Assembly (NCBI RefSeq): GCF_963506605.1
Contig: NC_083283.1
Coordinates: forward strand, 6,820,001-6,884,000
Length of the DNA stretch: 64,000 nucleotides
Reading direction: 5' to 3'
Source of the DNA: Zootoca vivipara
Lineage: Eukaryota
In this document: positions 3,273 to 60,937 of the stretch, piece after piece
Numbering within the stretch: position 1 is the first letter of the stretch
Layout: the number at the start of each line of letters is the position of its first letter
Position numbers and translations under genes: made by a program
The notes under the pieces: generated by a model
Databases searched by the model: none
Told to the model about the DNA's origin: nothing
The model's input: the letters and a program-made list of their open reading frames with translations, nothing else

Positions 3273-3658
3273 CAGTGGTACCTCGAGTTAAGAACTTAAT
3301 TCGTTCCAGAGGTGCGTTCTTAACCTGTAACTGTTTCTAACATGAGGTAACACTTTAGCTATTGGAGCCTTCCGCTGCCACCGCGCCACCACCCCACGAC
3401 TTCTGTTCTTATCCTGAAGAAAGGTTCTTAACCTGAGGTACTATTTCTGGGATTGCGGAGTCTGTAACCCAGGCATCCCCAAACTTCGGCCCTCCAGATG
3501 TTTTGGACTACAATTCCCATCTTCCCCGACCACTGGTCCTGTTAGCTAGGGATCATGGGAGTTGTAGGCCAAAACATCTGGAGGGCCACAGTTTGGGGAT
3601 GCCTGCTGTAACCTGAACCGTCTGTAACCTGAAGCATCTGTAACACGAGGTACCACTG
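3273..3658. mobile_element. Tc1/mariner (Tigger-like) MITE with a nested hAT MITE
   Basis: TIR CAGTGGTACCTC...GAGGTACCACTG with TA flanks; empty paralogous site ~20935; uninterrupted paralog at 24843-25100. Confidence 0.85.
3470..3605. mobile_element. hAT-Charlie (URR1-like) palindromic MITE
   Basis: TIR CAGGCATCCCCAAAC / GTTTGGGGATGCCTG; perfect 8-bp TSD CTGTAACC (3462-3469, 3606-3613). Confidence 0.9.
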
Positions 3659-3848: not shown

Positions 3849-3972
3849 CAGCTAGGTAGCCGTGTTGGTCTGACACACTCTCTCTCTATATATATACTGT
3901 ATTCCAGTAGCACCTTAGAGACCAAATAAGGTTGTTCTTGATATAAGCTTTTGTGTGCATGCACACTTCTTC
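3849..3972 (-). mobile_element. Degenerate Penelope pLTR-end fragment with hammerhead relic
   Basis: Minus strand GAAGAAGTGTGCATGCACACAAAAGCTTATA...GGTCTCTAAGGTGCTACTG...AGACCAACACGGCTACCTA matches pLTR 53689-53805; core motifs mutated. Confidence 0.8.
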
Positions 3973-10211: not shown

Positions 10212-11517
10212 TATCCTTTGAACTGAAGACTCCATGGCTCACCTATCTGCAAAAGGTGCACAGCATTGCCATTCAGCTACAGTTGCCTCCTACCTTTGCT
10301 AATGAATGAAATCAAATTCGGCAATTCGCATACCATACCTGTCTAAAACTTTGGATCAGCATCCCTCAGGCATGGTGAGTGGGAGCAGCAAGTGGTGCTG
10401 GAATAAGCAGGTAATCAGAAGATTTGCAGAAATTGTTTAGATGCCTCATCTGGTTCTTAGCAAGATGTGTAGGATCCTTCCCATGTGTCTTCAGTTCTGG
10501 GTAATCCATTTGCCAGCATCATGTGATAAGATGGTTGTATCGCACATCGCGTCTCAGGATAGCATTTGACAAACTCTTGCCTTCTAAAGTTCAGTGTCCC
10601 AAGCAGGCACACTTGAGAATAGAGAGTTTGCAAGTGGTAAGCAAGTCCAACTTATCTTTGTCCTTATCTGGAGAAATATCTTTATTGATTAGAGTGTCAC
10701 CCGACAGAAAGACCAACCAGTGTATTGAGAGAGGAATCAGCTTGCCATTGGTTCTGCTGGGGAAGAACGTAGGCTGGGGTGCAGAATTATATATGAAGAA
10801 CAAAAAAGAGAGTCCTGCTAGATCAGGTCAGTAGCCCCTGCAGCCAACTGTCCTGGTCTCACAGTGGCCAAACAGATGCTTCAGGAAGCCTACAAACAGC
10901 TTCTGAACACAATAGTACTTTCCTTCCACATGATGTTCTGCTGGCAGGCCTTAATCTCCTTAATTTTACAACCTTGTTGGGAAAACTTTGACATGTGGGA
11001 GGCCAATCTGTGTTTTTGGGTGGGACCTGGGCACACTTCTGCCTAATCCCATATTCATCAATTCTTTAAAGCCTCTATCTTTTTGGAGTACTCTTCATTC
11101 CATCCTGTGTGAGAGAGAGAGACCTTCTGTGTGCCGCCTTCCACCTGGTTCTTATCCCCCCCTCCCACAGTCATTCAATATCCCATGCCACTGAATCTTC
11201 TTTAGTTTGTTCTGGGGGTTTTATGCCACTCTCAGAGCTACTGAAGCATGCCTCTTACACAATAGTGGTATAGTTTTGAATACAGGAGTCCAAACATGGG
11301 AAGTATCAACTTGATATTACTGTGCATGAGACTCAAATATGTGATATAGAAGACTCCGTATGAGAGTGGTATGCTGGGCACATGTTCATGACCGTTAAAT
11401 GTCAGGACATTGTTATCTGCCACCAGAGCTATCTTGCTTGGACATCTGCAGAATATAGTTGGGTGTTCTCTGTGAGAGAAGACGGTTACAAAAGCATCAG
11501 ACCCAAAACTTACATTA

Positions 11518-11559
11518 TGGTATCTGAAGAAGTGTGCATGCACACGAAAGCTCATACCA
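11518..11559 (+). ncRNA. Minimal type I hammerhead ribozyme
   Basis: TGGTAT-CTGAAGA-A-GTGTGCATGCACAC-GAAA-GC-TC^ATACCA; predicted cleavage after C11553. Confidence 0.8.
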
Positions 11560-11653
11560 AAATAAAAACTTAGTTGGTCTTTAAGCTGCTACTGAAGGAA
11601 TTTTTTTATTTTACTTCGACCCAGACCAACACGGCTACCTACCTGTAACCAGA
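11521..11653 (+). mobile_element. 133-bp ORF-less Penelope pLTR-end insertion with intact hammerhead motif
   Basis: Two mismatches seen versus pLTR 53684-53816; 7-bp TSD ATTATGG (11514-11520, 11654-11660); empty paralogous sites at ~7210 and ~28597. Confidence 0.9.
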
Positions 11654-12031
11654 ATTATGGGGAAAGTAACTATATATGCAATAATTATATGCAGAAGCAT
11701 TCCAAAACATTATGGGAGTAATTAACGATCTAGACCTCAGACCACATCCAGTTCTCAATCCTTGGGTTCAATCCTTCTGCAGCAGTCCAACAGTAAGTTA
11801 ATTCCTCTCTTTTGAAACATCAGATTTACTTTCATTAATTCCTGCCCCCTCCCCCTCTCTCTCTCTCACACACAGAGAGCATGATTGCAGGAGCTGGGTT
11901 GGAAGACAGTAATCTTTCTCTGCCACCCATCCGGTGCTTTGTGCCATTCTGATGATGAGTGTTACTTGCTCAGGCAGATTTTTGATTAGCCTTTTATGTC
12001 AGCAGCTTGCTGCCTCTCAATTGCATTTGAG

Positions 12032-25295: not shown

Positions 25296-25420
25296 CAGGT
25301 AGGTAGCTGTGTTGGTCTGACACTATATATATATATAGAGAGAGAGAGTGTGTCAAGTAGCACCCTAGAGACCAACTAAGTTTGTTTTTGTATAAGCTTT
25401 TGTGTGCATGCACACTTCTT
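25296..25420 (-). mobile_element. Degenerate Penelope pLTR-end fragment with hammerhead relic
   Basis: Paralog of 3849-3972, ~25 nt downstream of the copy 5 stop codon. Confidence 0.8.
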
Positions 25421-31055: not shown

Positions 31056-31252
31056 CTTGCTTAATCTCAGTTTTTGAGCTATTTATTGTATGGATCTTCC
31101 TACCAAGAGAAAATAAATGTGGAGTCAGTTTTAGGTATAAAGCTCAACCATATTAAACTGAGACACTCAACCAATAACAAAAGAGACATGCTATAGTGGA
31201 AATTCATGACGGATGAAGAAACAAACACTTTAGGAATATTGTTTATTGGAAT

Positions 31253-31414
31253 AAAATAAAATAAAAATTCCTTCCAGTAGCACCTCAGAGACCAACTAAG
31301 TTTGTCATTGGTATGAGCTTTCGTGTGCATGCACTTAGTTGGTCTCTAAGGTGCTACTGGGAGGAATTTTTTAAATTTTGTTTTCACTACGGCAGACCAA
31401 CACGGCTACCTACC
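31253..31414. mobile_element. Miniature inverted Penelope pLTR-end insertion
   Basis: Antisense pLTR piece joined to a sense pLTR piece; 13-bp TSD TGTTTATTGGAAT (31240-31252, 31415-31427); empty paralogous site ~20195. Confidence 0.85.
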
Positions 31415-33863
31415 TGTTTATTGGAATGTTCATCAAAACTCATCAGTTTCAAAGGCTTAGAGACGAAATGCAATATTTCGGTGGGTTATGGATCTTTCCT
31501 CTGAGTAAAAAACCTGCAAACACAGCATCTGTAAGCATATAATTTGCAAACTGAAATTCTCCGAGAAGGAGTTGAACAGCTCTAGTGATTAGGGAAACAA
31601 AGCCAGAATGAATTGGGAAGGCATCTGTAATTTTATTATTATTGAAATGTGATTTTTAAAACAAAAGTGGATTAAATAAAACTCAAGTTGAATTGAGATT
31701 GATAATTAATATGAAAATCAGAAAAAGACCCACAATAGATTAGCCAGACAGCAAGATTTTTACAATGTGAAATGAATAAGACAAACCATTAGTCTATCCT
31801 GCCTAGTACTTTCTGCTCTGACTGGATGTGGTAACCAAAAATTCCTGCCGCCTTCACCAGCCACCCACCTGTATCCTTCTAACTGAAGACTCCATGGAGT
31901 TAACTTGGCCCACCTATCTGCAAAAGGTGCTCAGCATTGCCATTCAGCTACACTTGCCTTCTACCTTTGTCAATGAATGAAATCAAATTTAGCTCTTTAC
32001 ATACCTGTCTAAAACTTTGGATCAGCATCCCTCAGGCATGGTGAGTGGGAGCAGCAAGTGATGCTGGAATAAGCAGGTAAACAGTAGATTTGCAGAAATT
32101 GTTAAGATGCCTCATCTGGTTCTTAGCAAGATGTGTAGGATCCTTCCCATGTGTCTTCAGTTCTGTGTAATCCATTTGCCAGCATCATGTGATAAGATGG
32201 TTGTTTTGTGCATTGGGTCTCAGGATAGCATTTGGCAAACACAGGACGAGATTCTTCCCTTCTAAAGTTCAGTGTGCCAGGCAGGCACTCTTGAGCAGAG
32301 TGAATTTGCAAGTGGTAAGCAAGCCCAACTTCTCTTTGTCCCTATCTGGAGAAATATCTTTATTGATTGCCATTGGTTCTGCTGGGGAAGAACGTAGGCA
32401 GGGGTGCAGAACTATATCTGAAGAACAAAAAAGAGAGTCCTGCTAGATCAGGTCAGTAGCCCCTGCAGCCAACTGTCCTGGTCTCACAGTGGCCAAACAG
32501 ATGCTTCCAAAAGACCAAAAACAGCTTCTGAACACAACAGTACTCTCCTCCCCCGTGATGTTCTTCTGGCAGGCCTTAATCTCCTTAATTTTCCAACCCC
32601 CTTGGGACAACTTTGACATGTGTGGGAGGCCAACCTGCTTTTTTGGTTGGGGCATGGACACACTTCTGTCCGGTCCCATATGCACCAGTTCTTTAAAGCC
32701 TCTATTTATTGGTATCGAGTACTCTTCATTCCATCGTGGGGGACATGGGGTAAAATATCTGTCTGAACAAGGCTTAGCCATACCTTAAGATGTTATTTCT
32801 GGGATATTGTTTGTGGGAGAGAGAAAAAGAAAGAAGGAGAGAAAGCCACTCCATTCTATTCCACTCCAATCCATTCTCAGTCCCCCCCCACACTCATTCA
32901 ACATTCCATCCCACTGAGTTTTCATTGGGGTGTTAAGAGGTAGGAAGTATTTTTGCTGTATTTTTATTCTCTTTTTTGTGTATTTCATGTAATATAAGTA
33001 AGTATTTTAGCTTTATCCTCGTTCCTTTACTACTTAAGTCTTATTTGAAATATCGAAATTATGGTTTGAGTTAAGGTTCGGATTAAGTTAGGTTATGTTA
33101 AGTTAGGTTATGTTATGTTAATTTCTTTATATTATGCTAATTTCTTTTTTTTGTTAATTTTGTTAATTTGTTATTTGTTATTTTGCCAATTTATTTATTG
33201 ATTTGCTAATTTGTTAATTGTTTATTTGATTTTGCTTTGTCTATTTTGTATCGTTGTATAATTGAAATAAAGTTTTTCTTTTTATTAAAAAAAAAAAAGA
33301 GGTTTTTATGCCCCTCTCAGAGCCACCCAAATCTACTGAAGCATGCCTCTTATGTAAAGGTCATACAGTTTTGGCTACAGGAGCCCGAACATGGGAAGTA
33401 TCAACTTGGTGTTACTGCATATGAGTCTCATATATACGAATTTGTATGACATGCTGGGCACATGTTATTGGCAGTTAAACACCAGGACATTATTATCTGC
33501 CATCAGAGCTATCTTGCTTGGGCATGTGCAGATGATAGTCACGTGTTTCCTGTCGATGAAGATAGTTACATGTCTTGTGAAAAAATAACTATATACAAAA
33601 ACATTCCCAAGCAGCCTTCTGCCCCCCCCCAAAAAAACACTAGTCTTGTCAACACTCCTTTGACTCATCTGAAAGTTTTGCCTGAGAGAGCCATGAACCT
33701 TGTCCTTGCCTGCACATTTGCATTCCAGTGCTGGACTAAGAGTGGAGAGAGCTGGATTTAAATCACTATTTAGCAATGACACTTAGTGAGCGCCCTTGAT
33801 TCAGTCACAAACACTCACCCTAACCTACGTCACATAATTGTTGTAAGGATAAATACCATATTT

Positions 33864-43639: not shown

Positions 43640-43987
43640 TGTTGGGCAAAATACGCATCAACCGAGTGGCAACAGCGGCAGGGCCGACGAAATAACAAAG
43701 TCGTCTTCAGTATCTCTGCTTGCTTTTATTTACAATTATATACACCACACCCCTCTACTCCATTCCTCTCATTTCACAATAGATCACCACCACACCCATG
43801 AACCATTTGCTTAAATACAGAATTCAAAATAGTCAATTACCCAATCACATTACAGTAAGCAAACTCTACCTTCAATTATTCAAATTAGCAAAAGCTCACA
43901 GGTGTGCTAACATTCAGAACAAGGTTACAAACACACATCTCTGTGTAGCACCATTGACCACATCAGTCTTAAAGGAAAAACCCAACA
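43640..43987 (-). repeat. Copia 3' LTR
   Basis: TGTTGGG...CCCAACA; PPT AGCAGGGGGT adjacent (43988-43997, minus). Confidence 0.95.
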
Positions 43988-43999
43988 ACCCCCTGCTGG

Positions 44000-46900
44000 T
44001 CAATGATGCGTAGCAGTAACATTTAGCATTTTCTGTGTATGTTTAAGATGCGTAGCTGTTGGCAAAGCCTTTGTGAAAATATCTGCTATTTGCTCTAGTC
44101 CAGCTACGTATTCAAAAGTAATAATTTTTTCATTAATCATTTGTTTTGCAAACTCCAAGTGTAACCGTAACGTTCTGGTACGTTGGGTATTGCCTTCTGG
44201 TGTCAAAATGGCTATTCCACTTTGGGAATCAATGTGCACAGGTATTGGTAATTTTACTTTTATTTTTAGGTCTGCAAACAACTGCAAAAACCATTCAATG
44301 TCTCTGATGGCTTCAGAACATGCACAAAGTTCACTTTCTGTGGTTGACATACAAATTATATGCTGTCTGCGCGTTCTCCATTCAAATGGACATTCATTGT
44401 ATCTATAAACAAAACCAGACACACCTTTATATTTGAAATGTTCAGACGCATGAGATGCATCACAAAAAATATCGAACCCTGAGTCATTATGCGCCTTAAA
44501 ATGTAACCTGTAATGCAGTGTGTGTTTAAGATAAAGCACCACTCTTTTTAACGCTCGAAAACACTGCTTGGTTGGATTCTCCACAAATGTGGAAAGAAAA
44601 TTAAAACTGAAAGATATGTCTGGTCTGGACACGCGCTGAATAAAGTTCAGCTTTCCTAATATCGACCGGTAAAGTGTTTTGTCATGAAAAGGTGTATCCT
44701 CTTTAGTAAAAGTAAATCCACATGTTAATGGGGTTTCTTTTCCTTTTGCGTTCTCCAAATTTAGCACTTCTATTAAATCTTTAATTTTTGCAGTTTGATG
44801 TACAGCAAAAGAACAATCTGCAGCCCTGTCTATTTGCATGGACAGGTAATTCTTAACTTTCCCCAAATCTTTTACATCAAAACGTTTACAAAGTTGAGAA
44901 AGAAACAACTGGTATTCCTTTAAATGTTTACATGAAAATAATAAATCATCAACATAAACGGCCAATTTGACAACAGAATTTCCACATTGTTTGGTAAAAA
45001 TGCAATCATCAGCTTTCCCCTGCGCAAACCCAAATTCAATCAAGGTTTGTTTTAAAGTTTCATGCCAATTCCTGCCACTTTGATGTAGGCCATACAGAGA
45101 TTTGTTTAATTTACAAACTACTCCAGGTGCAGCATCTACACCATCCGGAACTTTCATGTATATGTTTTCATGCAAATCAGCATTAAGATAAGCTGTGGAA
45201 ATATCACAATGGTACAATTCGCACTCATTTTTAACAGCGTCTAGCATCATCAACTTTATACTTTCAAACTTCACACTCGGAGAAAACACATTCTCATAAT
45301 CAATGCCTTCCAATTGTTGGTAACCCCTTGCTACTAACCTAGCTTTATATCTCATAACTTTATTTTTATCATTAAGTTTTACTTTGAACACCCATCTTGA
45401 GTCTATGACCCGCATATCAGGTGTTTGCTTCACAAAAGTCCAGGTGTTATTTTGATTTAGAGATGCAAGCTCAGAGTCTATCGCTTTCATCCATTGTTGA
45501 GCTTGTGACTTTGGCATGGTTTGTATCTCTTTAAAACTTATTGGTTCAAAATTAACATGGTTACAATATACATTGTTTGCAACTTCTTCTATTTCCTCAT
45601 CAACAGTAGCAATATTTCTACGTTTAAACAACTGCTCCTGTCGTTTCTGCCTTTGTAGCTTTTGTTCATTGATGTAACGCTGTGGCGGTCTAGTTATTCT
45701 ACTGGAGCGTCTAAGCTCTGGTAAACTTTCACTGTCAGCTTTTAAATTTCCTTCCAAAACTTCAGAAATGCGGCTAGTAGAGGGCTTTGGACTTAAAGTA
45801 TGGTCTGAGTTGTCCATTGCCTCTTGTTCCCCTTTAAACTCACATTCTCCAATCTCTGACTGATTACTGTCAGGATCGGTGTCAACTGGCTGCTCGTTAG
45901 CATCAGCTGTACTCTTTGGGGATATTTCTTTAAGACCATCACTATCTTGAAACTCAGCTACACCATCCCAGTGTACTGAAGGTATAATGCTACGGGTAAG
46001 GTGAAACTTTTTTGTGTCTGGTAAATAAATGCGATAATTCCCTTGTTGATATCCCATAAATTTACCCGGGATACCTCTTTCCTGCAGCTTCCCTTTAGCT
46101 GGGTAATGCATCATAACATCACTGCCCCAAATGCACAAATACTTTAGATTGGGATGCTTTCCAAAAAGCATTTCATAAGGTGTTACTGTTAATGCAGAAT
46201 GATAGGATCGATTCTTTATATGAGTATAACAGCTCAAACATTCAGCCCAGAAGCTATCAGGAAGTTGAGCATCATGGAGCATTGTTTTTATCCCAGATTG
46301 TAGGTTTTTGTTAACAACCTCAGCAATCCCATTCTGCCAGGGACTCCTGGGTGAGGACACTTGGTGTACTGTCCCCTGCGCATTTAGGAACTCTTCAAAA
46401 TCCTGCGACATAAATTCACCTCCAAGATCAGAGTACAGATTTTGTATATTTTTACCAAAATGAGTCTTAACCCAATTGCAAAACTTTTTATACATTTCTA
46501 GTGCTTGAGACTTCTTAGAGATTGCATATGTCCAAACATATCTGGTTTTCTGGTCCACAAGTGTTAGCCAGAATCGGGACCCTCCAAGTGATTCTGGCAA
46601 TGGTCCTACTAAATCACAGTGAACCCTTTCGAAAGGCTCTACTACTTCTCTCATAGTGCTTTTGCCCTTTCGTGCCACCTTAATTTTATGTTTGCAGCAT
46701 GACAGACAGTTCATGTAAAATTTACACGGTTTAATCTCTAGACCATGCACTATATCCCTTGTTTTCAAAACATCTGCAAAGTTTTTATGGCAAAGTTTGC
46801 GGTGAGCTTCATGTAGGCAGTTTTTATGTGGCTGGCAATTTGCCAACCCCTGCCTGCTCCTATTGGCTACACCACAACATCTATTGCTTCCTCCTGAAGA

Positions 46901-47434
46901 GGAGTGAAACTTGAGCCTGTAAAGCCCATGAGTCTGTTTTGCATAGAGAACCTGCTTGTTGGCCCGATAAAATTGGCACATTTTTTCAGTAAATTTAGCT
47001 CTAACACCTTGACGTGCAAACTGATAAACTGATAATAAGTTCCCACACAGTTCAGGGCAATAAACAACATCTGATATAGTAATATTCAAACTATGCAGTT
47101 TTATAGTACCCTTTCCAAGTGAGGGCAAAACTATTCCATTCGCTAAATGCGCATTTCCAGTCTCTGGTGTGTAATTTATGAAGAGACTGCGATTGCTGCA
47201 CAAGTGCTGCGATGCGCCACTATCGATGATGAAGAAGTCCCAGTTACCTCTTTTAACTTCACAAGCCTGTGGTTCTGCAAAGAATGCTTGTGGCTCGGGT
47301 CGACTACCTCGTTGCGGTCGCTGCGAAGGCTTCCATGCCTGAGTGGCTGTGTGTCCCTTTTGCGACCTAGAGGAAGTCTTTTTTACTCTTTGCTCTGCAT
47401 TCCGAAGCAAAATGTCCCAAAAGGCCACAGGCAA
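44000..47434 (-). CDS. pol: Copia pol (protease, integrase, RT, RNase H)
   Basis: IDSGASQH protease; HRKLCH..CLSC zinc finger; HCDLVG/YSDLGGEF/NGIAE DDE; YKARLVARGY, SLYGLHQSG, YVDD; FCDAS..ADIFTK; no internal stops. Confidence 0.95.
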   Translation of the reverse strand: MPVAFWDILLRNAEQRVKKTSSRSQKGHTATQAWKPSQRPQRGSRPEPQAFFAEPQACEVKRGNWDFFIIDSGASQHLCSNRSLFINYTPETGNAHLANGIVLPSLGKGTIKLHSLNITISDVVYCPELCGNLLSVYQFARQGVRAKFTEKMCQFYRANKQVLYAKQTHGLYRLKFHSSSGGSNRCCGVANRSRQGLANCQPHKNCLHEAHRKLCHKNFADVLKTRDIVHGLEIKPCKFYMNCLSCCKHKIKVARKGKSTMREVVEPFERVHCDLVGPLPESLGGSRFWLTLVDQKTRYVWTYAISKKSQALEMYKKFCNWVKTHFGKNIQNLYSDLGGEFMSQDFEEFLNAQGTVHQVSSPRSPWQNGIAEVVNKNLQSGIKTMLHDAQLPDSFWAECLSCYTHIKNRSYHSALTVTPYEMLFGKHPNLKYLCIWGSDVMMHYPAKGKLQERGIPGKFMGYQQGNYRIYLPDTKKFHLTRSIIPSVHWDGVAEFQDSDGLKEISPKSTADANEQPVDTDPDSNQSEIGECEFKGEQEAMDNSDHTLSPKPSTSRISEVLEGNLKADSESLPELRRSSRITRPPQRYINEQKLQRQKRQEQLFKRRNIATVDEEIEEVANNVYCNHVNFEPISFKEIQTMPKSQAQQWMKAIDSELASLNQNNTWTFVKQTPDMRVIDSRWVFKVKLNDKNKVMRYKARLVARGYQQLEGIDYENVFSPSVKFESIKLMMLDAVKNECELYHCDISTAYLNADLHENIYMKVPDGVDAAPGVVCKLNKSLYGLHQSGRNWHETLKQTLIEFGFAQGKADDCIFTKQCGNSVVKLAVYVDDLLFSCKHLKEYQLFLSQLCKRFDVKDLGKVKNYLSMQIDRAADCSFAVHQTAKIKDLIEVLNLENAKGKETPLTCGFTFTKEDTPFHDKTLYRSILGKLNFIQRVSRPDISFSFNFLSTFVENPTKQCFRALKRVVLYLKHTLHYRLHFKAHNDSGFDIFCDASHASEHFKYKGVSGFVYRYNECPFEWRTRRQHIICMSTTESELCACSEAIRDIEWFLQLFADLKIKVKLPIPVHIDSQSGIAILTPEGNTQRTRTLRLHLEFAKQMINEKIITFEYVAGLEQIADIFTKALPTATHLKHTQKMLNVTATHH

Positions 47435-48083
47435 AGCATTTCTTGTTGGCTCTTAAAGCTACAACATCCCTATTGTCATTTGAATGCACATTCTGCTCTT
47501 TGGGAACCGACATAACAGAGGCGTCTCGCCTGTCCAGCTCCGCCATCAGTTTTGCAGTCACGCCTTCAATACTCAGCTGGTCAGGAGGGACCAAAGCGAG
47601 CTGGCTTGCGACTGCATCATACTCTTTGTTTAATGAGCAGAGGATTATAAAACAAAATTGATTAACAGGAACCACAACGTCTCTTCTCAAAAGCTCCAAC
47701 CTGATTTCCTGTAAATGTCTCAGGTGAGCTGCCAAGTCACCGCCAGGTTGCAGCTTTGCCTGATAAAGCTGGCGGTAAAAAGCCAAGGCTGACGCAGACT
47801 CTTTTCTCAAATGGACCGCAGCCAAACTCTCCCACATTTCTTTAGCCGATGTTTTATCTCTGATATATACAACTTGCTGGTCGGACACTGCTAAGTTTAT
47901 AAAGGCTTTGGCTTTGTTATCCCCCCGTATCCATTCAGGGGTGATTATCTGAGGAGGGTCATCTGTGGCGTAGTCAAACAGGTCCTTACATTCGAGTAAT
48001 CCTCTCATTCTAAAGGACCAAAGGCTATAATTACCATCAGTTAGTTGAGGATAGGTAAGTGCCATCTTTTCGCCGTCATCCAT
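47367..48083 (-). CDS. gag: Copia gag
   Basis: LTDGNYSLWSFRM N-terminal motif and CX2CX4HX4C knuckle CFACGLLGHFASEC. Confidence 0.93.
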   Translation of the reverse strand: MDDGEKMALTYPQLTDGNYSLWSFRMRGLLECKDLFDYATDDPPQIITPEWIRGDNKAKAFINLAVSDQQVVYIRDKTSAKEMWESLAAVHLRKESASALAFYRQLYQAKLQPGGDLAAHLRHLQEIRLELLRRDVVVPVNQFCFIILCSLNKEYDAVASQLALVPPDQLSIEGVTAKLMAELDRRDASVMSVPKEQNVHSNDNRDVVALRANKKCFACGLLGHFASECRAKSKKDFL

Positions 48084-48173
48084 CCTGGATATACTTATGG
48101 CTCCTTTTCGACCGGCAGATAGCTCAGCTTCGCAGCCCTCTTAGCAAGCAGTTCAAACACCCATGCACAGTTT

Positions 48174-48187
48174 CTGGGCCCATAACC
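48174..48187 (-). promoter_or_regulatory. Primer-binding site, copia half-tRNAiMet type
   Basis: GGTTATGGGCCCAG 3 nt downstream of the 5' LTR; matches the Drosophila copia PBS as I recall it. Confidence 0.85.
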
Positions 48188-48190
48188 GGA

Positions 48191-48538
48191 TGTTGGGCAA
48201 AATACGCACCAACCGAGTGGCAACAGCGGCAGGGTCGACGAAATAACAAAGTCGTCTTCAGTATCTCTGCTTGCTTTTATTTACAATTATATACACCACA
48301 CCCCTCTACTCCATTCTTCTCATTTCACAATACATCACCACCACACCCATGAACCATTTGCTTAAATACAGAATTCAAAATAGTCAATTACCCAATCACA
48401 TTACAGTAAGCAAACTCTACCTTCAATTATTCAAATTAGCAAAAGCTCACAGGTGTGCTAACATTCAGAACAAGGTTACAAACACACATCTCTGTGTAGC
48501 ACCATTGACCACATCAGTTTTAAAGGAAAAACCTAACA
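48191..48538 (-). repeat. Copia 5' LTR
   Basis: 348 bp; 6 substitutions counted by eye versus 43640-43987. Confidence 0.95.
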
Positions 48539-49604
48539 TCCTGTTAAAATGTGCAAATCCATTAGCTGGTGTTTCAGAAAAGGCGAGGTTAGGGTTAACT
48601 TCCTTTCCCGGGATGCATCAGCAATCCCCTGTGTGCGCTTCAAATTGTTTTGGTTGTAAATTAGCAAAGCCTCAGAAGATATTGGCAGTTTGTAGTTGCA
48701 GCTGTTTCAAGCTTAGTGGCATCATGTTGCAATAATAGTCAGATTCTGTACTGAATCAACGGCGACAATGGAGCTTTTCAATCTGTTGCATCTTCAGGCA
48801 GAGCTGTAAAAGGTTGTTGTCAGAAATCCTGGAGAACGCCTGTCAACCAGTGTTAACAGTACTGAACTAGAATCATAGAATGGTAGAGTTGGAGTGGATC
48901 CCAAGGCCCATGTAATCCAACCCCTTGTGATGCAGGATAACTAGATGGAGTAATAAGTTTAACTTGGTATAAGGCAGCTTCCTATGTTCCTGCTTTCACA
49001 GACATGCACATACCTTAAGATCTGAGCTGTGGACCTGACAGAGGCCAAAACAGACTGAAGGAAAGATCAGGACAAAGGAATCAAACCCAAGGTTTTTCTG
49101 TAAATGCTGCTTTTGAAGAGGAGTGTAATGAAAGAGAGGGAGAAGTGGGGGCAGCACAGAGAAGGAGGAAAAAAGCAGGAAGGAAAGATTTCATGCTTCA
49201 GTGCCAGCCCATTAAAAGTGTTGCTTTAAAAGGATTCCAAATGATACTGCAAATGGTTTCTTGCTGCCTTGTTAAAACACCAGTTCCTGATTACGCACTC
49301 ACATTGCTGTATTCTATCCCTGCAAGCAACTGCTTTATGCTCTTGCCCAATTTTATCTACACTACATCTGGGATGAAAGAAGACCGAGGGATTTCAAGCC
49401 TCAAACATACTACTTCCAACCAATCATTTGATCACAGATGAGAACAGACAGGTTTGAGATATTCCAGAACGTCATACAAGACTCCCCTCTCACAAGTGTG
49501 CTACGTGTCAAATGTAACGTGATCATATACTTGAGTTGGCAAAAACACACACACCATAGGAACATGGACTTGGTTCCTTAGAGCATGCAAAGGTTCCAGA
49601 TTCA

Positions 49605-51139: not shown

Positions 51140-51363
51140 CTCTAGCTCCTCTGTATCTTCCTTCTCCTTCAGAAGAATCTGGAGTATGACCTATATGTTC
51201 TGCTTAGATCAGCCCCCTTTCTTTCTTCCAAACAGGAAACACACCAGTGGATGAAATATGATATTTAGACAGCTGCATAATAACTAAAAATGTGTAGGAG
51301 TCAAATGAAGAAATGATCAGTTAAGAAAAAACAAAAAAAAACAAAATTTATGGGAACGCTAAG
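51140..51363 (-). pseudogene. Degraded MAS-related GPCR remnant (TM6 to C-terminus)
   Basis: Minus strand reads LAFP*...LLCSCLNIIFHPLVCFLFGRKKGG*SKQNI*VILQILLKEKED, homologous to copies 1-6; not in the ORF track. Confidence 0.75.
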
Positions 51364-51440
51364 TCTGTTGTAATCTCAAAAATAGTTTTATCCTGTTCAT
51401 AAAACTATCTTTGAGATTACAACAGACTTAGTGTTCCCAT
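51350..51440. repeat. 42-bp inverted repeat with 7-nt loop
   Basis: Arms 51350-51391 and 51399-51440, two mismatches. Confidence 0.9.
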
Positions 51441-52064: not shown

Positions 52065-52283
52065 CCTTTGTCCATGGAGTTTTCTTGGCAGGGATACTGG
52101 AGTGGCTTGCCAGTTCCTTCTCCAGGTGGATCACGTTTAGTCAAAACTCTCCACTATGACCTGTCCATCTTGGGTGGCCCTGCATGGCATAGCTCATAGC
52201 TTCTCTGAGTTATTCAAGCCCCTTTGCCACGACAAGGCATTGATCCATGAAGAATTGATGCTTTTGAATTATGGTGCTGGAGG
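52065..52283 (+). mobile_element. BovB/RTE-derived non-autonomous element, 5' part (split by Penelope)
   Basis: BovB 5'-like TGTCCATGGAG...ATACTGGAGTGG...CCTTCTCCA joined to ORF-end GAATTGATGCTTTTGAATTATGGTGCTGGAGG; TSD ACTCCATTTCA at 52054-52064. Confidence 0.8.
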
Positions 52284-52338
52284 AAAATAAAAAAATTCCT
52301 TCAGTAGCACCTTAAAGACCAACTAAGTTTTTATTTTG

Positions 52339-52376
52339 GTATGAGCTTTCGTGTGCATGCACACTTCTTCAGATAC
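52339..52376 (-). ncRNA. Minimal hammerhead ribozyme (inverted pLTR)
   Basis: Reverse complement of 53683-53720. Confidence 0.8.
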
Positions 52377-53682
52377 AGTGAAATGGAAGTTTCCAGGCAC
52401 TTATGTAGAGAAGGGGTGGGGAGGGGTGGGGATGGGGAGGGGGGATCACTCAGAAGGGTGGTGGAAATGGGTGATTGACTGACTGATAGCTGTTGATGAC
52501 CGCAAACGACTGCAAATGGTTTTGCATGAAAAAGCAAGGGTTGAGATGGCTGAAGATCGCTTATCATGTATAATGAGATAAGAACCCGATATCTCTGTTC
52601 AAACCAGGTCCCTCCATGGTTTTGAGCTTGGTGATAAGTTGCAATTCAGCAACTTCTCTTTCCAGTCTATTTCTGAAATTCTTTTGTAGTAAGACAGCTA
52701 CTTTGAGATCTTGTATAGAATGTCCTGGGAGATTGAAGTGTTCTCCTACTGGTTTTTCTGTCTTCTGGTTCCTGATGTCAGATTTATGTCCATTTATCCT
52801 TTGGCGTAGGGTTTGGCCTGTTTGTCCAATATAGAGAGCTGAAGGGCACTGTTGGCATTTGATGGCATACACAATGTTAGAGGATGAGCAATTAAATAGT
52901 CCTGAGATGGTATGTTGGATGTTGTTGGGGCCAGTGATGGTGTTGTCCGGGTGTATGTGGCAGCAAAGTTGGCATCTGGGTTTATTGCAGGCTCTGGTAC
53001 CAGTGTCCATGTTAAGTCTGGTGGTTGTATTATTGTGGGTGACTTAACATGGACACTGGTACCAGAGCCTGCAATAAACCCAGATGCCAACTTTGCTGCC
53101 ACATACACCCGGACAACACCATCACTGGCCCCAACAACATCCAACATACCATCTCAGGACTATTTAATTGCTCATCCTCTAACATTGTGTATGCCATCAA
53201 ATGCCAACAGTGCCCTTCAGCTCTCTATATTGGACAAACAGGCCAAACCCTACGCCAAAGGATAAATGGACATAAATCTGACATCAGGAACCAGAAGACA
53301 GAAAAACCAGTAGGAGTACACTTCAATCTCCCAGGACATTCTATACAAGATCTCAAAGTAGCTGTCTTACTACAAAAGAATTTCAGAAATAGACTGGAAA
53401 GAGAAGTTGCTGAATTGCAACTTATCACCAAGCTCAAAACCATGGAGGGACCTGGTTTGAACAGAGATATCGGGTTCTTATCTCATTATACATGATAAGC
53501 GATCTTCAGCCATCTCAACCCTTGCTTTTTCATGCAAAACCATTTGCAGTCGTTTGCGGTCATCAACAGCTATCAGTCAGTCAATCACCCATTTCCACCA
53601 CCCTTCTGAGTGATCCCCCCTCCCCATCCCCACCCCTCCCCACCCCTTCTCTACATAAGTGCCTGGAAACTTCCATTTCACT

Positions 53683-53720
53683 GTATCTGAAGAAGTGTGC
53701 ATGCACACGAAAGCTCATAC
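53683..53720 (+). ncRNA. Minimal hammerhead ribozyme (5' pLTR)
   Basis: GTAT-CTGAAGA-A-GTGTGCATGCACAC-GAAA-GC-TC^ATAC; predicted cut after C53716. Confidence 0.85.
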
Positions 53721-53819
53721 CAAAATAAAAACTTAGTTGGTCTTTAAGGTGCTACTGAAGGAATTTTTTTATTTTACTTCGATCCAGACCAACACGGCTA
53801 CCTACCTGTAACCAGAACT

Positions 53820-56521
53820 ATGGAAGGCACCACATTGAGCCGCATGAAATGGAAGTCCATCAACCTCACCAAGAAACTTGCCCAGGTACAAACTGACATC
53901 CTCTTTCTATCTAAATGCAAAAACCTGGACATTGTACCTAAGGGTCTTAGAATTAAGAACCCTCTTCAATCAACTTATCCCACAGAATATGCCAGAAAAC
54001 TATGCCACACTTTATCTAAGAAACTGCTGAAACATCTTATCGGCGTTCTGTATTCCAAACAGAAGTTAATAAAGGAGGAACTCTCTGCACTGGAGAACTC
54101 CATCAGGAATCACCCGGCCTGGCAGAAGTTCCACAAGGAAAAACAAACCATTTACCACTCTCAACTGGAGTTACTGAAGAACCAGAAAAATAAAAAACTC
54201 TGCAACCTTTCCAACCTACAGGCCACCAATCAAAACAAGATCAACAACATTGTCAATCTTTCACAGCAAACACTCAGCCCAGCTGAGGAATCCGTCCTTT
54301 CACGGGGACTATCATTCTGCCCTGCCAAATCCCAACACATGATTCAGTTCTGCGGGGACCTGGAAGCATTTTTCCGCCGTTTACGCCTGAAGGAGTATTT
54401 TCATCACACACAAGAACAAGACAAAGTAGAACAAACTACATCCCCACAACACAACACCTCTCAACTTACTGGGGAACAACCATCACCCTCCAAACGCATC
54501 AATGAACAGAACATTGACCACCAACTACCACCGAAAAGAAGTTACACAAAAAGGGACTCCACATGGACCCCTCCTGATGGACGCAATACCACACTAGATC
54601 TGTACATCGAATGCTTCCGCCACAGAATCCAAACGGATGTGACCAGAAAACACCATCGCTTACAACAAAATCTAAACCATGCTGAAAGGAGAGCCATAGA
54701 AAATCTCAGGAACAACCCAGACATTATAATTAAAGAGGCAGACAAGGGTGGAGCTGTCGTCATCATGAACAAAACTGATTACATCCAAGAGGCCCACAGA
54801 CAACTTTCCAATACTGCCTTTTACATGAAATTGGACTCAGACCCCACACAAGCATACAAAAAAGAACTGAACAAGATTATTAAGGAGCTACCCCTACACA
54901 TCCAAGAACAGATCCTCACAAACACACCAGCGGAACCTCGGCCAGGAACTTTCTATCTTCTACCCAAAATACACAAACCAGGAAACCCAGGACGCCCCAT
55001 CATCTCAGGTATTGGCACCATTACAGTGGGTGTTTCCGGCTATATGGACTCTGTTCTGAAACCATATGCTATCAGTGCTCCCAGCTACGTACGTGACACC
55101 ACAGATTTTCTGAGGAAAATACAATATTTGAACAATCTTCCTAACAATACTATACTAGCCACTATGGATGTGGAATCTCTATATACCAACATCCCACACA
55201 ATGATGGTTTACAAGCCATAAGGAACACCATTTCAGATAAAACCACAGCGGACTTTGCTACCAAACTCTGCCACTTTGTCCTTACCCACAACCACTTCAA
55301 ATTTGGTGATGGTTCCTCCAGATCAGCGGCACAGCCATGGGCACCCGCATGGCCCCACAGTATGCCAACATCTTCATGGCAGATTTAGAACAACGTTTCC
55401 TTAACTCCTACCCACTCAAACCTCTCCTGTACCTGCGATACATTGACGATATTTTTATTATCTGGACACATGGACAACAGACCCTGGAAACCTTCCACCA
55501 GACATTCAATGACTTTCACCCCACCATCAACCTAACAATGAACCAATCTATGCAAGAAATACATTTTTTGGACACTACTATAAAAATACAGGATGGACGT
55601 ATAGACACCACCTTATACAGAAAACCAACTGACCGACAAACATATCTACATGCTTCTAGCTACCATCCCAAACATACCAAACAATCCATCGTATACAGCC
55701 AGGCCTTACGTTACAACCGCATCTGTTCCAACTCTACAGACAGAGAATCTCACCTAAGAGATCTACAGCAAACCTTTTTAGAACTAAAATATCCACCTGA
55801 TGAAGTTAAACAACAGATCAACAGAGCCAGACAGATACCTAGAGAGAACCTGCTGCAAGACAGACCCAAAAAAGAAAATAACAGAACACCACTAGTCATC
55901 ACATACAGCTCCCAAGCTAAAACAGTACAACGCATCATCAGAGATCTACAGCCTCTCCTGGACAATGACCGCTCCCTTTCTCAAGCTCTGGGAGGAAGAC
56001 CTTTCATTGCCTACAGACAGCCACCCAATCTTAAACAACTCCTCACCCACAATAATACAACCACCAGACTTAACATGGACACTGGTACCAGAGCCTGCAA
56101 TAAACCCAGATGCCAACTTTGCTGCCACATACACCCGGACAACACCATCACTGGCCCCAACAACATCCAACATACCATCTCAGGACTATTTAATTGCTCA
56201 TCCTCTAACATTGTGTATGCCATCAAATGCCAACAGTGCCCTTCAGCTCTCTATATTGGACAAACAGGCCAAACCCTACGCCAAAGGATAAATGGACATA
56301 AATCTGACATCAGGAACCAGAAGACAGAAAAACCAGTAGGAGAACACTTCAATCTCCCAGGACATTCTATACAAGATCTCAAAGTAGCTGTCTTACTACA
56401 AAAGAATTTCAGAAATAGACTGGAAAGAGAAGTTGCTGAATTGCAACTTATCACCAAGCTCAAAACCATGGAGGGACCTGGTTTGAACAGAGATATCGGG
56501 TTCTTATCTCATTATACATGA
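53820..56521 (+). pseudogene. Penelope RT/GIY-YIG ORF with a single frameshift
   Basis: ADKGGAVVIM, LPKIHK, GRPIISG, MDVESLYTNIP, AMGTRMAP, RYIDDIF, FLD, CNKPRCQLC linker, IVY..YIGQT; frames join at 55311-55312 (probable 4-nt deletion). Confidence 0.92.
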
Positions 56522-56708
56522 TAAGCGATCTTCAGCCATCTCAACCCTTGCTTTTTCATGCAAAACCATTTGCAGTCGTTTGCGGTCATCAACAGCTATC
56601 AGTCAGTCAATCACCCATTTCCACCACCCTTCTGAGTGATCCCCCCTCCCCATCCCCACCCCTCCCCACCCCTTCTCTACATAAGTGCCTGGAAACTTCC
56701 ATTTCACT

Positions 56709-56746
56709 GTATCTGAAGAAGTGTGCATGCACACGAAAGCTCATAC
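56709..56746 (+). ncRNA. Minimal hammerhead ribozyme (3' pLTR)
   Basis: Identical to 53683-53720; predicted cut after C56742. Confidence 0.85.
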
Positions 56747-56839
56747 CAAAATAAAAACTTAGTTGGTCTTTAAGGTGCTACTGAAGGAATTTTTTTATTT
56801 TACTTCGATCCAGACCAACACGGCTACCTACCTGTAACC

Positions 56840-58787: not shown

Positions 58788-58895
58788 GGGGGAGGGATGT
58801 AGTTCAATGTTAGCACATCTGTCTTGCTTGCAGAGCATCCCAGGTTTAATCCCTGGCATCTCCAGATAGGGCTGTGAAACACTCCTACCAGTCAG
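58788..58895 (+). mobile_element. Degenerate tRNA-derived SINE
   Basis: TAGTTCAATG box A and CCCAGGTTTAATCCCTGGCATCTCCAG box B region. Confidence 0.5.
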
Positions 58896-59756: not shown

Positions 59757-60686
59757 TTACTTTGTAGAGTTTTCTTCCTCTTTGAAAACATTCTGGAGCC
59801 TGGCTTCCATGCTCTCCCTAGGTCTGCCTCTCTTCTGTCTCCCAATCAGGAAATATATCAAAGGGTTCACACTGCTGTTAAGAGCAGTGTTTAAGTAGCA
59901 AAAAGGTAAGGAATAGGGCATTGGTGAATGAAAAATATAAGTGGACATGTAATAGGCATTCATTGGAAAAGACAAAAAGATGAAGAAGAACAGAGTAAGC
60001 AGGATAACCATTAGTAGTTTTCCCCGCTTTCGTTGTTGTGATTTAAAGCAGACCTTGATAAACAGGATCAGGGTGGAGAAAGCCATGAGTGGTAGGCAAA
60101 AGAAGCCATTAAAAGTATACTGATAGTATTTTATGAGATCCTGTTTTTCCTTAATAGTCAGGAGGGCAATGAAGTGAATTCCAGGGAGAAGGAAAGAAAA
60201 CACCCATATTAAGGCACACACAATGGTGGGCAAATGTGGCGGCCGGTGGCATCGGTACCAAAGTGGGAACAGGACAGACACACACCTGTCAAGGCTGATA
60301 GCTGTCAGCAGAAACTGACCGGCATTGTACATGGATTGGAAAACGTCACCAAGGAATACATTCAGAATGCTCTCATTCAGACCTCCTACTACCCAAACTA
60401 CTTCTAAAATCAATTCAATTGTGAGTAAGCCAAAGTCAGCAATGGCGAGGTTCAGGATGTACGCGGTAAAAGGGCTCCCCTTAATACGGAAGCCAAGCAA
60501 CCAGATGACATTTCCAGTCCCCCAGCACCCCAAAATGCAAATTATAATTATTAATACAAATACAACATATGTTTCTAATCCATAATGCACAATCGATTTG
60601 GGGTCATCATTACTGTTGCTATTGTTGGAAAAAGCAGTTTCATTGTACAAAGGGGACAAAGATGTAAGGTTGAAACTGGTCGTCAT
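59757..60686 (-). CDS. MAS-related GPCR copy 9 (second subfamily), 309 aa, C-terminally shortened
   Basis: 7TM ORF, ATG at 60686; stop TAA is followed in frame by VHTSVEIRL* homologous to the copy 8 tail. Confidence 0.82.
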   Translation of the reverse strand: MTTSFNLTSLSPLYNETAFSNNSNSNDDPKSIVHYGLETYVVFVLIIIICILGCWGTGNVIWLLGFRIKGSPFTAYILNLAIADFGLLTIELILEVVWVVGGLNESILNVFLGDVFQSMYNAGQFLLTAISLDRCVSVLFPLWYRCHRPPHLPTIVCALIWVFSFLLPGIHFIALLTIKEKQDLIKYYQYTFNGFFCLPLMAFSTLILFIKVCFKSQQRKRGKLLMVILLTLFFFIFLSFPMNAYYMSTYIFHSPMPYSLPFCYLNTALNSSVNPLIYFLIGRQKRGRPRESMEARLQNVFKEEENSTK

Positions 60687-60937
60687 CTCCAATCTTGGTT
60701 TCCGTGCTTCTTCTGGTGTATATATTCCTGCTGGAAGTAAAGAATCAAGGGTGGAATTAGTCTTTGCTAATGAAGCTGAGCAAATGAAGATTGAATTAAA
60801 GCTTTCTGTTTAGTCTTTCTTGCCTCATCCATTATAGCAATTTCATAAAATATTGTTGAATTGAAATATTTCTTCCTGGCTCATCTCCAGTTACTGTTGC
60901 ATTTTCAGGAACACACATAAAAATAATGATAATTATT

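What the first reader, a model, noticed from the sequence alone, without database searches (positions are those of the whole stretch)
11514..11660. 133-bp ORF-less mobile unit made of just a hammerhead ribozyme plus a stem-loop
Seen: a young insertion (2 mismatches to the pLTR, TSD ATTATGG, empty in paralogs) begins exactly at hammerhead stem I and ends just before the Penelope ATG. Host bases TGG extend stem I from 4 to 6 bp (TGGTAT/ATACCA). A second stem, GTTGGTCT/AGACCAAC, follows. The target (A)ATTATGG resembles the element's own continuation AACTATGG, suggesting microhomology priming. The relics at 3849-3972 and 25296-25420 have nearly the same boundaries. Inference: either a recurrent RT stop at the ribozyme structure or a discrete SINE/retrozyme-like non-autonomous family of about 130 nt mobilised by Neptune.
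Basis: partly seen in the sequence, partly recalled or inferred. Interest (0 to 1): 0.72.

Follow-up and report, generated by a model that had tools for sequence, protein, structure and literature searches.

The report
Penelope run-off copy, not ribozyme SINE
This 133-base insertion is one of thousands of tiny copies of a Penelope-type jumping gene that all begin at the first base of its hammerhead ribozyme, likely because the gene's capped RNA starts there and the copying enzyme runs off its end, so it is likely a dead-end by-product that records how the element is copied rather than a self-spreading ribozyme element.

Summary
The insertion is real: 133 bp, TSD ATTATGG, absent from four paralogs, 2 mismatches to a young Neptune-type PLE. 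Its 5' boundary is a genome-wide peak. Of 14,816 exact copies of the ribozyme's first 28 nt, at least 4,114 (28%) lose the native base just upstream, against 2.1% at the predicted cleavage site and 0.7-4.3% at upstream controls. It is not a discrete SINE or retrozyme. Short copies share haplotypes with long copies of each main subfamily and are rejected as one clade (p-AU 2.6e-6). Long copies have the same 3' ends. A TATA-like box lies 31 nt upstream, and G is the commonest non-native preceding base (66%), as expected from copying a cap. Best reading (0.7): reverse transcription starts internally in the 5' pLTR of a capped transcript and runs off its 5' end, like strong-stop DNA. RNA-seq did not show the start site. 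The two relics are one duplicated event. The scan reached similar readings before on other genomes.

The parts
11514..11520 (+). 5' target-site duplication ATTATGG; its last G overlaps +1 and its next-to-last G sits where many copies carry an extra G
11520..11557 (+). Minimal type I hammerhead motif: stem I GTAT/ATAC, core CTGAAGA, extra A, palindromic stem II, GAAA, palindromic AGCT; predicted cut after C11553 (+34)
   Evidence: sequence, folds, definition in PMC4209133; activity not tested
11573..11630 (+). Second stem GTTGGTCT/AGACCAAC; its A/T-rich loop holds the first cluster of 3' ends (66 to 101, mostly +87 to +98)
11631..11653 (+). 3' part of the PLE 'tail'; second cluster of 3' ends (+126 to +134)
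   Evidence: tail described in PMC8557442 and PMC11167929
11654..11660 (+). 3' target-site duplication, matching the element's own continuation at 6 of 7 bases
52281..53042 (-). Inverted 5'-truncated arm of the window's PLE, 3' end at about +95
53041..56839 (+). Partial-tandem PLE (pLTR-ORF-pLTR), RT and GIY-YIG, CxxxxCxxC linker, one frame break near 55310-55340, 3' end at +131
53652..53682 (+). Putative core promoter: TATA-like TACATAAG at -31 to -24 and initiator-like TCACT at -5 to -1, after CCCCACCC runs; missing from the short insertion
   Evidence: similar arrangement in PMC3846280; function inferred
3849..3972 (-). Older short copy (about 86% identical), same event as 25296-25420
25296..25420 (-). 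Paralogous duplicate of the 3849-3972 relic

Best explanation
The unit is a short insertion of the first 135 bases downstream of the hammerhead's first base in a Neptune-type Penelope-like element, likely made when reverse transcription starts internally in the 5' pseudo-LTR of a capped transcript and runs off the RNA's 5' end. Shown: the insertion, the sharp boundary at +1, the G excess before it, the TATA-like box at -31, the two 3' end clusters, and the mixing of short and long copies. Inferred: (1) a TATA/Inr promoter in the pLTR starts Pol II transcription at about +1; (2) the transcript of a tandem element carries the RT start sites (+90, +130) twice, once per pLTR; (3) priming in the 3' pLTR gives long, variably truncated copies, while priming in the 5' pLTR can copy only 90 or 130 nt, like retroviral strong-stop DNA; (4) the extra G is the copied cap; (5) the product lacks the promoter and is a dead end, with the ribozyme a passenger copied uncleaved.
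For: Boundary: base before +1 among 14,816 exact copies is G 2,721, A 874, C 519, so 4,114 (27.8%) are non-native. Controls: 309 vs 14,387 at the cleavage site (2.1%), 134 and 21 of about 3,082 at -3 and -5. Position-ordered sample: 22 of 100 5' ends lie in the 12 positions -4 to +8, 11 in +9 to +31, 14 in -45 to -5, 53 farther up. Extra G: 2,721 of 4,114 against 1,217 expected from base composition. Of 42 G-class junctions, 4 show TSD plus exactly one G and 5 a TSD ending in G; several others are hairpins that need a terminal extra C on the cDNA. An extra G marks full-length capped L1 insertions (PMC11702581). Promoter: 47 of 53 TATA-like matches among the 100 sit at -31 across subfamilies with different spacers. 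3' ends: 46 of 100 at 66-101, 49 at 126-145, 5 run on; in 18 of 18 head-to-head pairs one arm falls in each cluster. Internal RT start at two sites and uncleaved RNA as template were shown in vitro for an anole PLE (PMC11167929). Short copies: 35 of 81 are identical to one of 23 long copies, 45 of 81 within one difference; no clustering, monophyly rejected.
Against: The start site is not shown in RNA. In three RNA-seq runs of one study, 79-92% of laid reads ran on into unlike sequence (host read-through), no pile-up of starts was called at +1, and the only called starts were 7 and 5 molecules at -26 and -24. The peak is smeared to +8 and is only about 4-fold over its neighbours in the 100-copy sample, which comes from the first 4.3 Mb of one contig, where G-preceded copies are 8 of the first 100 against 18% genome-wide. 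The extra G also pairs with C39, so one-base snap-back on stem I is not excluded. Constant TATA spacing can reflect common descent. The initiator-like TCACT would put the start at -3, not +1. D. virilis Penelope has a TATA-less internal promoter (PMC2377424). 28 of 81 short copies are nearest to another short copy and 10 to a long one; long copies were under-sampled.
Confidence: 0.7

Rival explanations
1. Structure-driven termination: RT copies a longer RNA, but the new cDNA folds back or is released once stem I is completed, so copies end at +1 without an RNA end there.
For: Hairpin and stutter junctions are common at +1; L006 shows a fold-back exactly on stem I; an added G would pair with C39.
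Against: Stem I is only 4 bp. Stem I snap-back predicts TTG before +1, seen in 6 of 42 G-class junctions. For R2, snap-backs follow full-length cDNA, so they also fit a run-off (PMC11371274). It does not explain the TATA-like box at -31.
Confidence: 0.12
2. The RNA end at +1 comes from processing (a splice acceptor or another cut), not from transcription start.
For: In D. virilis the intron's 3' end maps to the 5' end of helix I (PMC4209133). Several subfamilies here have a pyrimidine tract and AG one base before +1.
Against: The window's subfamily and most of its sister have CACT, with no AG. Short copies show host, inverted or hairpin sequence upstream, not one shared upstream exon. Splicing does not free an exon 5' end.
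Confidence: 0.07
3. A discrete SINE- or retrozyme-like non-autonomous family of about 130 nt is transcribed from its own master copies and mobilised in trans.
For: Thousands of short copies with a fixed 5' end and TSDs; their sequence is abundant in RNA-seq; PLE-derived retrozymes exist in vertebrates (bioRxiv 10.64898/2026.07.22.740005).
Against: No short-specific substitutions; the four commonest haplotypes all occur in long copies; monophyly rejected; 3' ends range from about +66 to +185; no promoter inside; boundaries do not match the cleavage site; the RNA signal is mostly host read-through. A small self-propagating subset is not excluded.
Confidence: 0.06
4. Ordinary random 5' truncation with a bias to short lengths; the match to stem I is chance.
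For: 53 of 100 sampled copies extend beyond -45 and end at scattered places; ends also occur on both sides of +1.
Against: 27.8% break at one position against 0.7-4.3% at three control positions; the G excess is unexplained.
Confidence: 0.03

Closest known systems
Endonuclease-bearing Penelope-like elements (Neptune/Nematis type) with pLTR, inverted 5' arm and one-sided 30-40 bp tail (PMC8557442, PMC3846280; passages read)
   Same: RT plus GIY-YIG with a Cys linker, partial tandem, inverted arm, tail on one arm only, TATA plus TCACT in the pLTR (as in Adineta Pen2a)
   Different: The passages read do not describe mass integration of a 90/130-nt unit with a fixed 5' end and an extra G
Minimal hammerheads of metazoan PLEs, dispersed as single motifs (PMC4209133; results and discussion read)
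   Same: Short helix I, bulged base before helix II, palindromic remnant of helix III; mostly solo or opposite-strand copies, attributed to truncated PLEs
   Different: Here the truncation point is fixed at helix I and linked to a putative start site; cleaved RNA leaves no genomic trace
PAc Poseidon of Anolis: internal RT initiation (PMC11167929; main text read)
   Same: Two adjacent internal start sites defining the tail; uncleaved RNA used as template
   Different: PAc's start sites lie 111-118 nt into the ORF; here the 3' ends lie just upstream of the ATG, and a different PLE clade is involved
Non-LTR retrozymes (PMC7229834 passages; bioRxiv 10.64898/2026.07.22.740005 parts 1-2 of 5)
   Same: Non-coding, type I hammerhead, PLE-related, TSDs
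   Different: Retrozymes are tandem repeats of canonical ribozymes yielding circular RNA; this is a monomer with a minimal motif whose ends are not the cleavage site
Retroviral/LTR minus-strand strong-stop DNA (recalled) and capped full-length L1 5' junctions (PMC11702581 passage)
   Same: Short cDNA from an internal primer to the RNA 5' end; extra G from the cap
   Different: Target-primed and integrated directly, no tRNA primer, no strand transfer; an analogy, not membership

Membership tests
EN+ Penelope-like element (source) | ORF with RT and C-terminal GIY-YIG | tested here: met
   Pfam RVT_1 E 1.7e-5 (below curated cut-off) and GIY-YIG E 2.9e-5 (above) in 55337-56518; no family for 53820-55319
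EN+ Penelope-like element (source) | pLTR, partial tandem, inverted arm, one-sided tail | tested here: met
   18 of 18 pairs
Neptune clade | Zn-finger-like Cys linker between RT and EN (shared with Nematis) | tested here: met
   CNKPRCQLC before GIY-YIG; PMC8557442
Neptune clade | RT phylogeny within Neptune rather than Nematis | not tested
Minimal PLE hammerhead | CUGANGA...GAAA...UH core, short helix I, palindromic 15.2-16.2 | tested here: met
   Sequence, fold; Rfam gave no hit
Minimal PLE hammerhead | Self-cleavage (as dimer or protein-assisted) | not testable with these tools
   Cofold favoured pairing through stem II, not the active dimer; no genomic ends at the cut site
Non-LTR retrozyme | Tandem repeats with a ribozyme in each unit | tested here: not met
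   Monomer in the window; other loci are solo or head-to-head, with a few irregular direct repeats
Non-LTR retrozyme | Circular RNA made by self-cleavage | tested here: inconclusive
   No dominant back-joint among the joints shown; 34 rows were not shown
SINE / discrete non-autonomous family | Own lineage with diagnostic substitutions | tested here: not met
SINE / discrete non-autonomous family | Internal Pol III promoter or tRNA/5S/7SL head | tested here: inconclusive
   No Rfam match over the unit; the whole unit is pLTR sequence; A/B boxes not scanned

The most novel reading that the evidence does not exclude
In this PLE the hammerhead is the first 38 nt of the capped mRNA, and the genome holds thousands of integrated strong-stop-like cDNAs that map the start site and both RT start sites to within a few bases. 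A ribozyme in that position would cut off the cap, so it could act as a dimer- or protein-gated off-switch for translation rather than as a unit-length processor.
Probability: 0.3. Interest if true: 0.65.

Novelty: new variant of a known kind. Interest (0 to 1): 0.4.

Why it matters
How Penelope-like elements integrate and what their hammerhead does are open questions (PMC8557442, PMC11167929). If the reading holds, the short copies give base-level predictions for the start site (+1), the RT start sites (+90, +130) and the use of uncleaved capped RNA. It would also explain the many solo minimal hammerheads in animal genomes as by-products and warn against annotating them as SINEs or retrozymes. 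As an object the insertion is an ordinary dead-end copy.

Tried and rejected
Rfam: no hammerhead hit., 11 sample (23 of 29 other loci starting at +1 to +3) was set aside as biased by the query's flanks and replaced by position-ordered and pattern counts. Cleavage-site boundary: rejected. A seemingly short-only haplotype (34 'short', 0 'long') was a classification error: long copies with another TATA variant carry it; relabelled. The nearest-neighbour test was void (all ties) and was redone. Run search: no RNA holder listed; three raw-read RNA runs came by species label; their lay was uninformative on the start site, and no second subfamily could be examined in RNA. Literature: 'Penelope + strong-stop + retrotransposon' gave 1 unrelated paper; searches listed no paper describing this unit, judged from listings and the papers named; subscription journals, Repbase/Dfam entries and supplements were not seen, and a short Neptune derivative may be annotated there. 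Zingler 2005 was not held. PMC10018344 and PMC13000458 (passages) did not bear on a cap-derived G. Microhomology priming as a general rule was not tested beyond looking at junctions.

Full report
Observation. The window is a tandem cluster of GPCR genes in a 1.44-Gb genome. At 11514-11660 one paralog carries 133 bp between two copies of ATTATGG; four other paralogs are empty. The insert matches the pLTR of a Penelope-like element at 53041-56839 with two mismatches. I number from the G of GTATCTG (+1). The insert spans +1 to +135; the ORF's ATG is +138. A minimal type I hammerhead occupies +1 to +38, with predicted cut after +34, and an 8-bp stem joins +54-61 to +104-111. The two older relics lie in one duplicated block and count once.

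The 5' boundary. Exact-match counts in the genome: 14,816 copies of +1 to +28; preceded by G 2,721, A 874, C 519; the remaining 10,702 by the native T, of which 3,082 by CT and 5,665 by AGT. So at least 27.8% break exactly at +1. The same measure gives 2.1% at the cleavage site, 4.3% at -3 and 0.7% at -5 (one subfamily, denominator approximate). These counts cover exact matches only, that is young copies. In the first 100 position-ordered copies, 22 5' ends fall in -4 to +8, 11 in +9 to +31, 14 in -45 to -5 and 53 beyond (automated calls are uncertain by a few bases), about 4-fold per base over the neighbours. A continuum exists, but with a clear peak.

The 3' boundary is not special to short copies. 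Of the same 100, 46 end at 66-101, 49 at 126-145 and 5 run on; in 18 of 18 head-to-head pairs one arm ends in each cluster (counted). This is the known one-sided tail (PMC8557442, passages), which in the anole PLE corresponds to two internal RT start sites (PMC11167929, main text).

Not a separate family. After removing duplicates, 81 short and 23 long copies reaching +124 were compared (from 279 distinct copies; the rest ended earlier or had intermediate 5' ends). 35 of 81 short copies are identical to a long one over +10 to about +126; the four commonest haplotypes occur in both classes. The label is not clustered on the tree (17 changes, 15.4 shuffled, 431 of 500 shuffles as low) and one clade of short copies is rejected (p-AU 2.6e-6; 118 columns, quick tree, so resolution is low). 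The window's insertion is one change from long and short copies of a sister subfamily.

Why +1. First, RT has already copied the whole ribozyme at +1; a stall or a cleaved template would end near +35 to +39. Second, G is 66% of non-native preceding bases against 30% expected. Among 42 G-class junctions from the first 40 loci, 4 have a TSD plus one extra G, 5 have a TSD ending in G, and several are CTTCTTCAG hairpins that need a terminal extra C; the rest are joins to inverted arms or unresolved. An extra G marks capped full-length L1 insertions (PMC11702581, passage). In the window's insertion the target's GG could have paired with that cDNA end, which explains the host-extended stem. Third, long copies have a TATA-like box at -31 in 47 of 53 matches, with different spacers between subfamilies, and TCACT/TCAGT-like bases just before +1; a similar pair was noted in Adineta Pen2a (PMC3846280, passage).

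Model. A tandem element is likely transcribed from the upstream pLTR starting at about +1. Its RNA holds the RT start sites twice. Priming in the downstream pLTR gives long copies; priming in the leader gives 90- or 130-nt run-off cDNAs, integrated singly or as head-to-head pairs. They lack the promoter. The absence of ends at +35 agrees with the in vitro result that uncleaved RNA is the template. All these steps are inferred.

Against. RNA-seq (3 runs, 1 study, about 6% of each read) is dominated by host read-through, shows loose ends before +1 to +7 that mirror the genomic junctions, and calls no starts at +1; its only called starts are at -26 and -24. The extra G could be one base of snap-back on stem I. 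D. virilis has a TATA-less promoter (PMC2377424, passages) and an intron ending at helix I (PMC4209133, results and discussion), so a processing origin is kept as a rival.

Comparison and verdict. The parts are known: minimal hammerheads as dispersed single motifs, pLTRs, tails, internal initiation. It works like strong-stop DNA (recalled analogy) and fails membership tests for retrozymes and SINEs. I found no paper on the fixed +1 end in the searches. Earlier AI notes of this scan reached similar readings on other genomes; my reading was noted before that look-up, and those notes are not independent support. New variant of a known kind; interest 0.4.

Noticed in passing
window 3997-42471 and 59757-60809: Tandem cluster of about nine single-exon GPCR genes on the minus strand, resembling MAS-related receptors (label recalled, no family scan); several recent segmental duplications.
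   Followed up: no
window 43640-48541: Young Copia-type LTR retrotransposon by appearance: 351-bp LTRs 98% identical, long pol frame of 1,150 aa and a separate gag-like frame.
   Followed up: no
window 31247-31417: Older head-to-head mini-pair of the same pLTR turning at the stem II palindrome, flanked by a TGTTTATTGGAAT duplication.
   Followed up: partly
L087 (G000:C1:2776000-2781500): Four tandem 598-bp units made of the pLTR plus the first 80 nt of ORF, each with promoter and hammerhead: a retrozyme-like array.
   Followed up: no
G000 genome-wide: At least five pLTR subfamilies with distinct promoter spacers and over 14,000 exact-match young copies, pointing to recent or ongoing activity.
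   Followed up: partly
window 51350-51440, 3496-3579, 58793-58864: A near-perfect 91-bp palindrome, an 84-bp hairpin repeat and a tRNA-like match.
   Followed up: no
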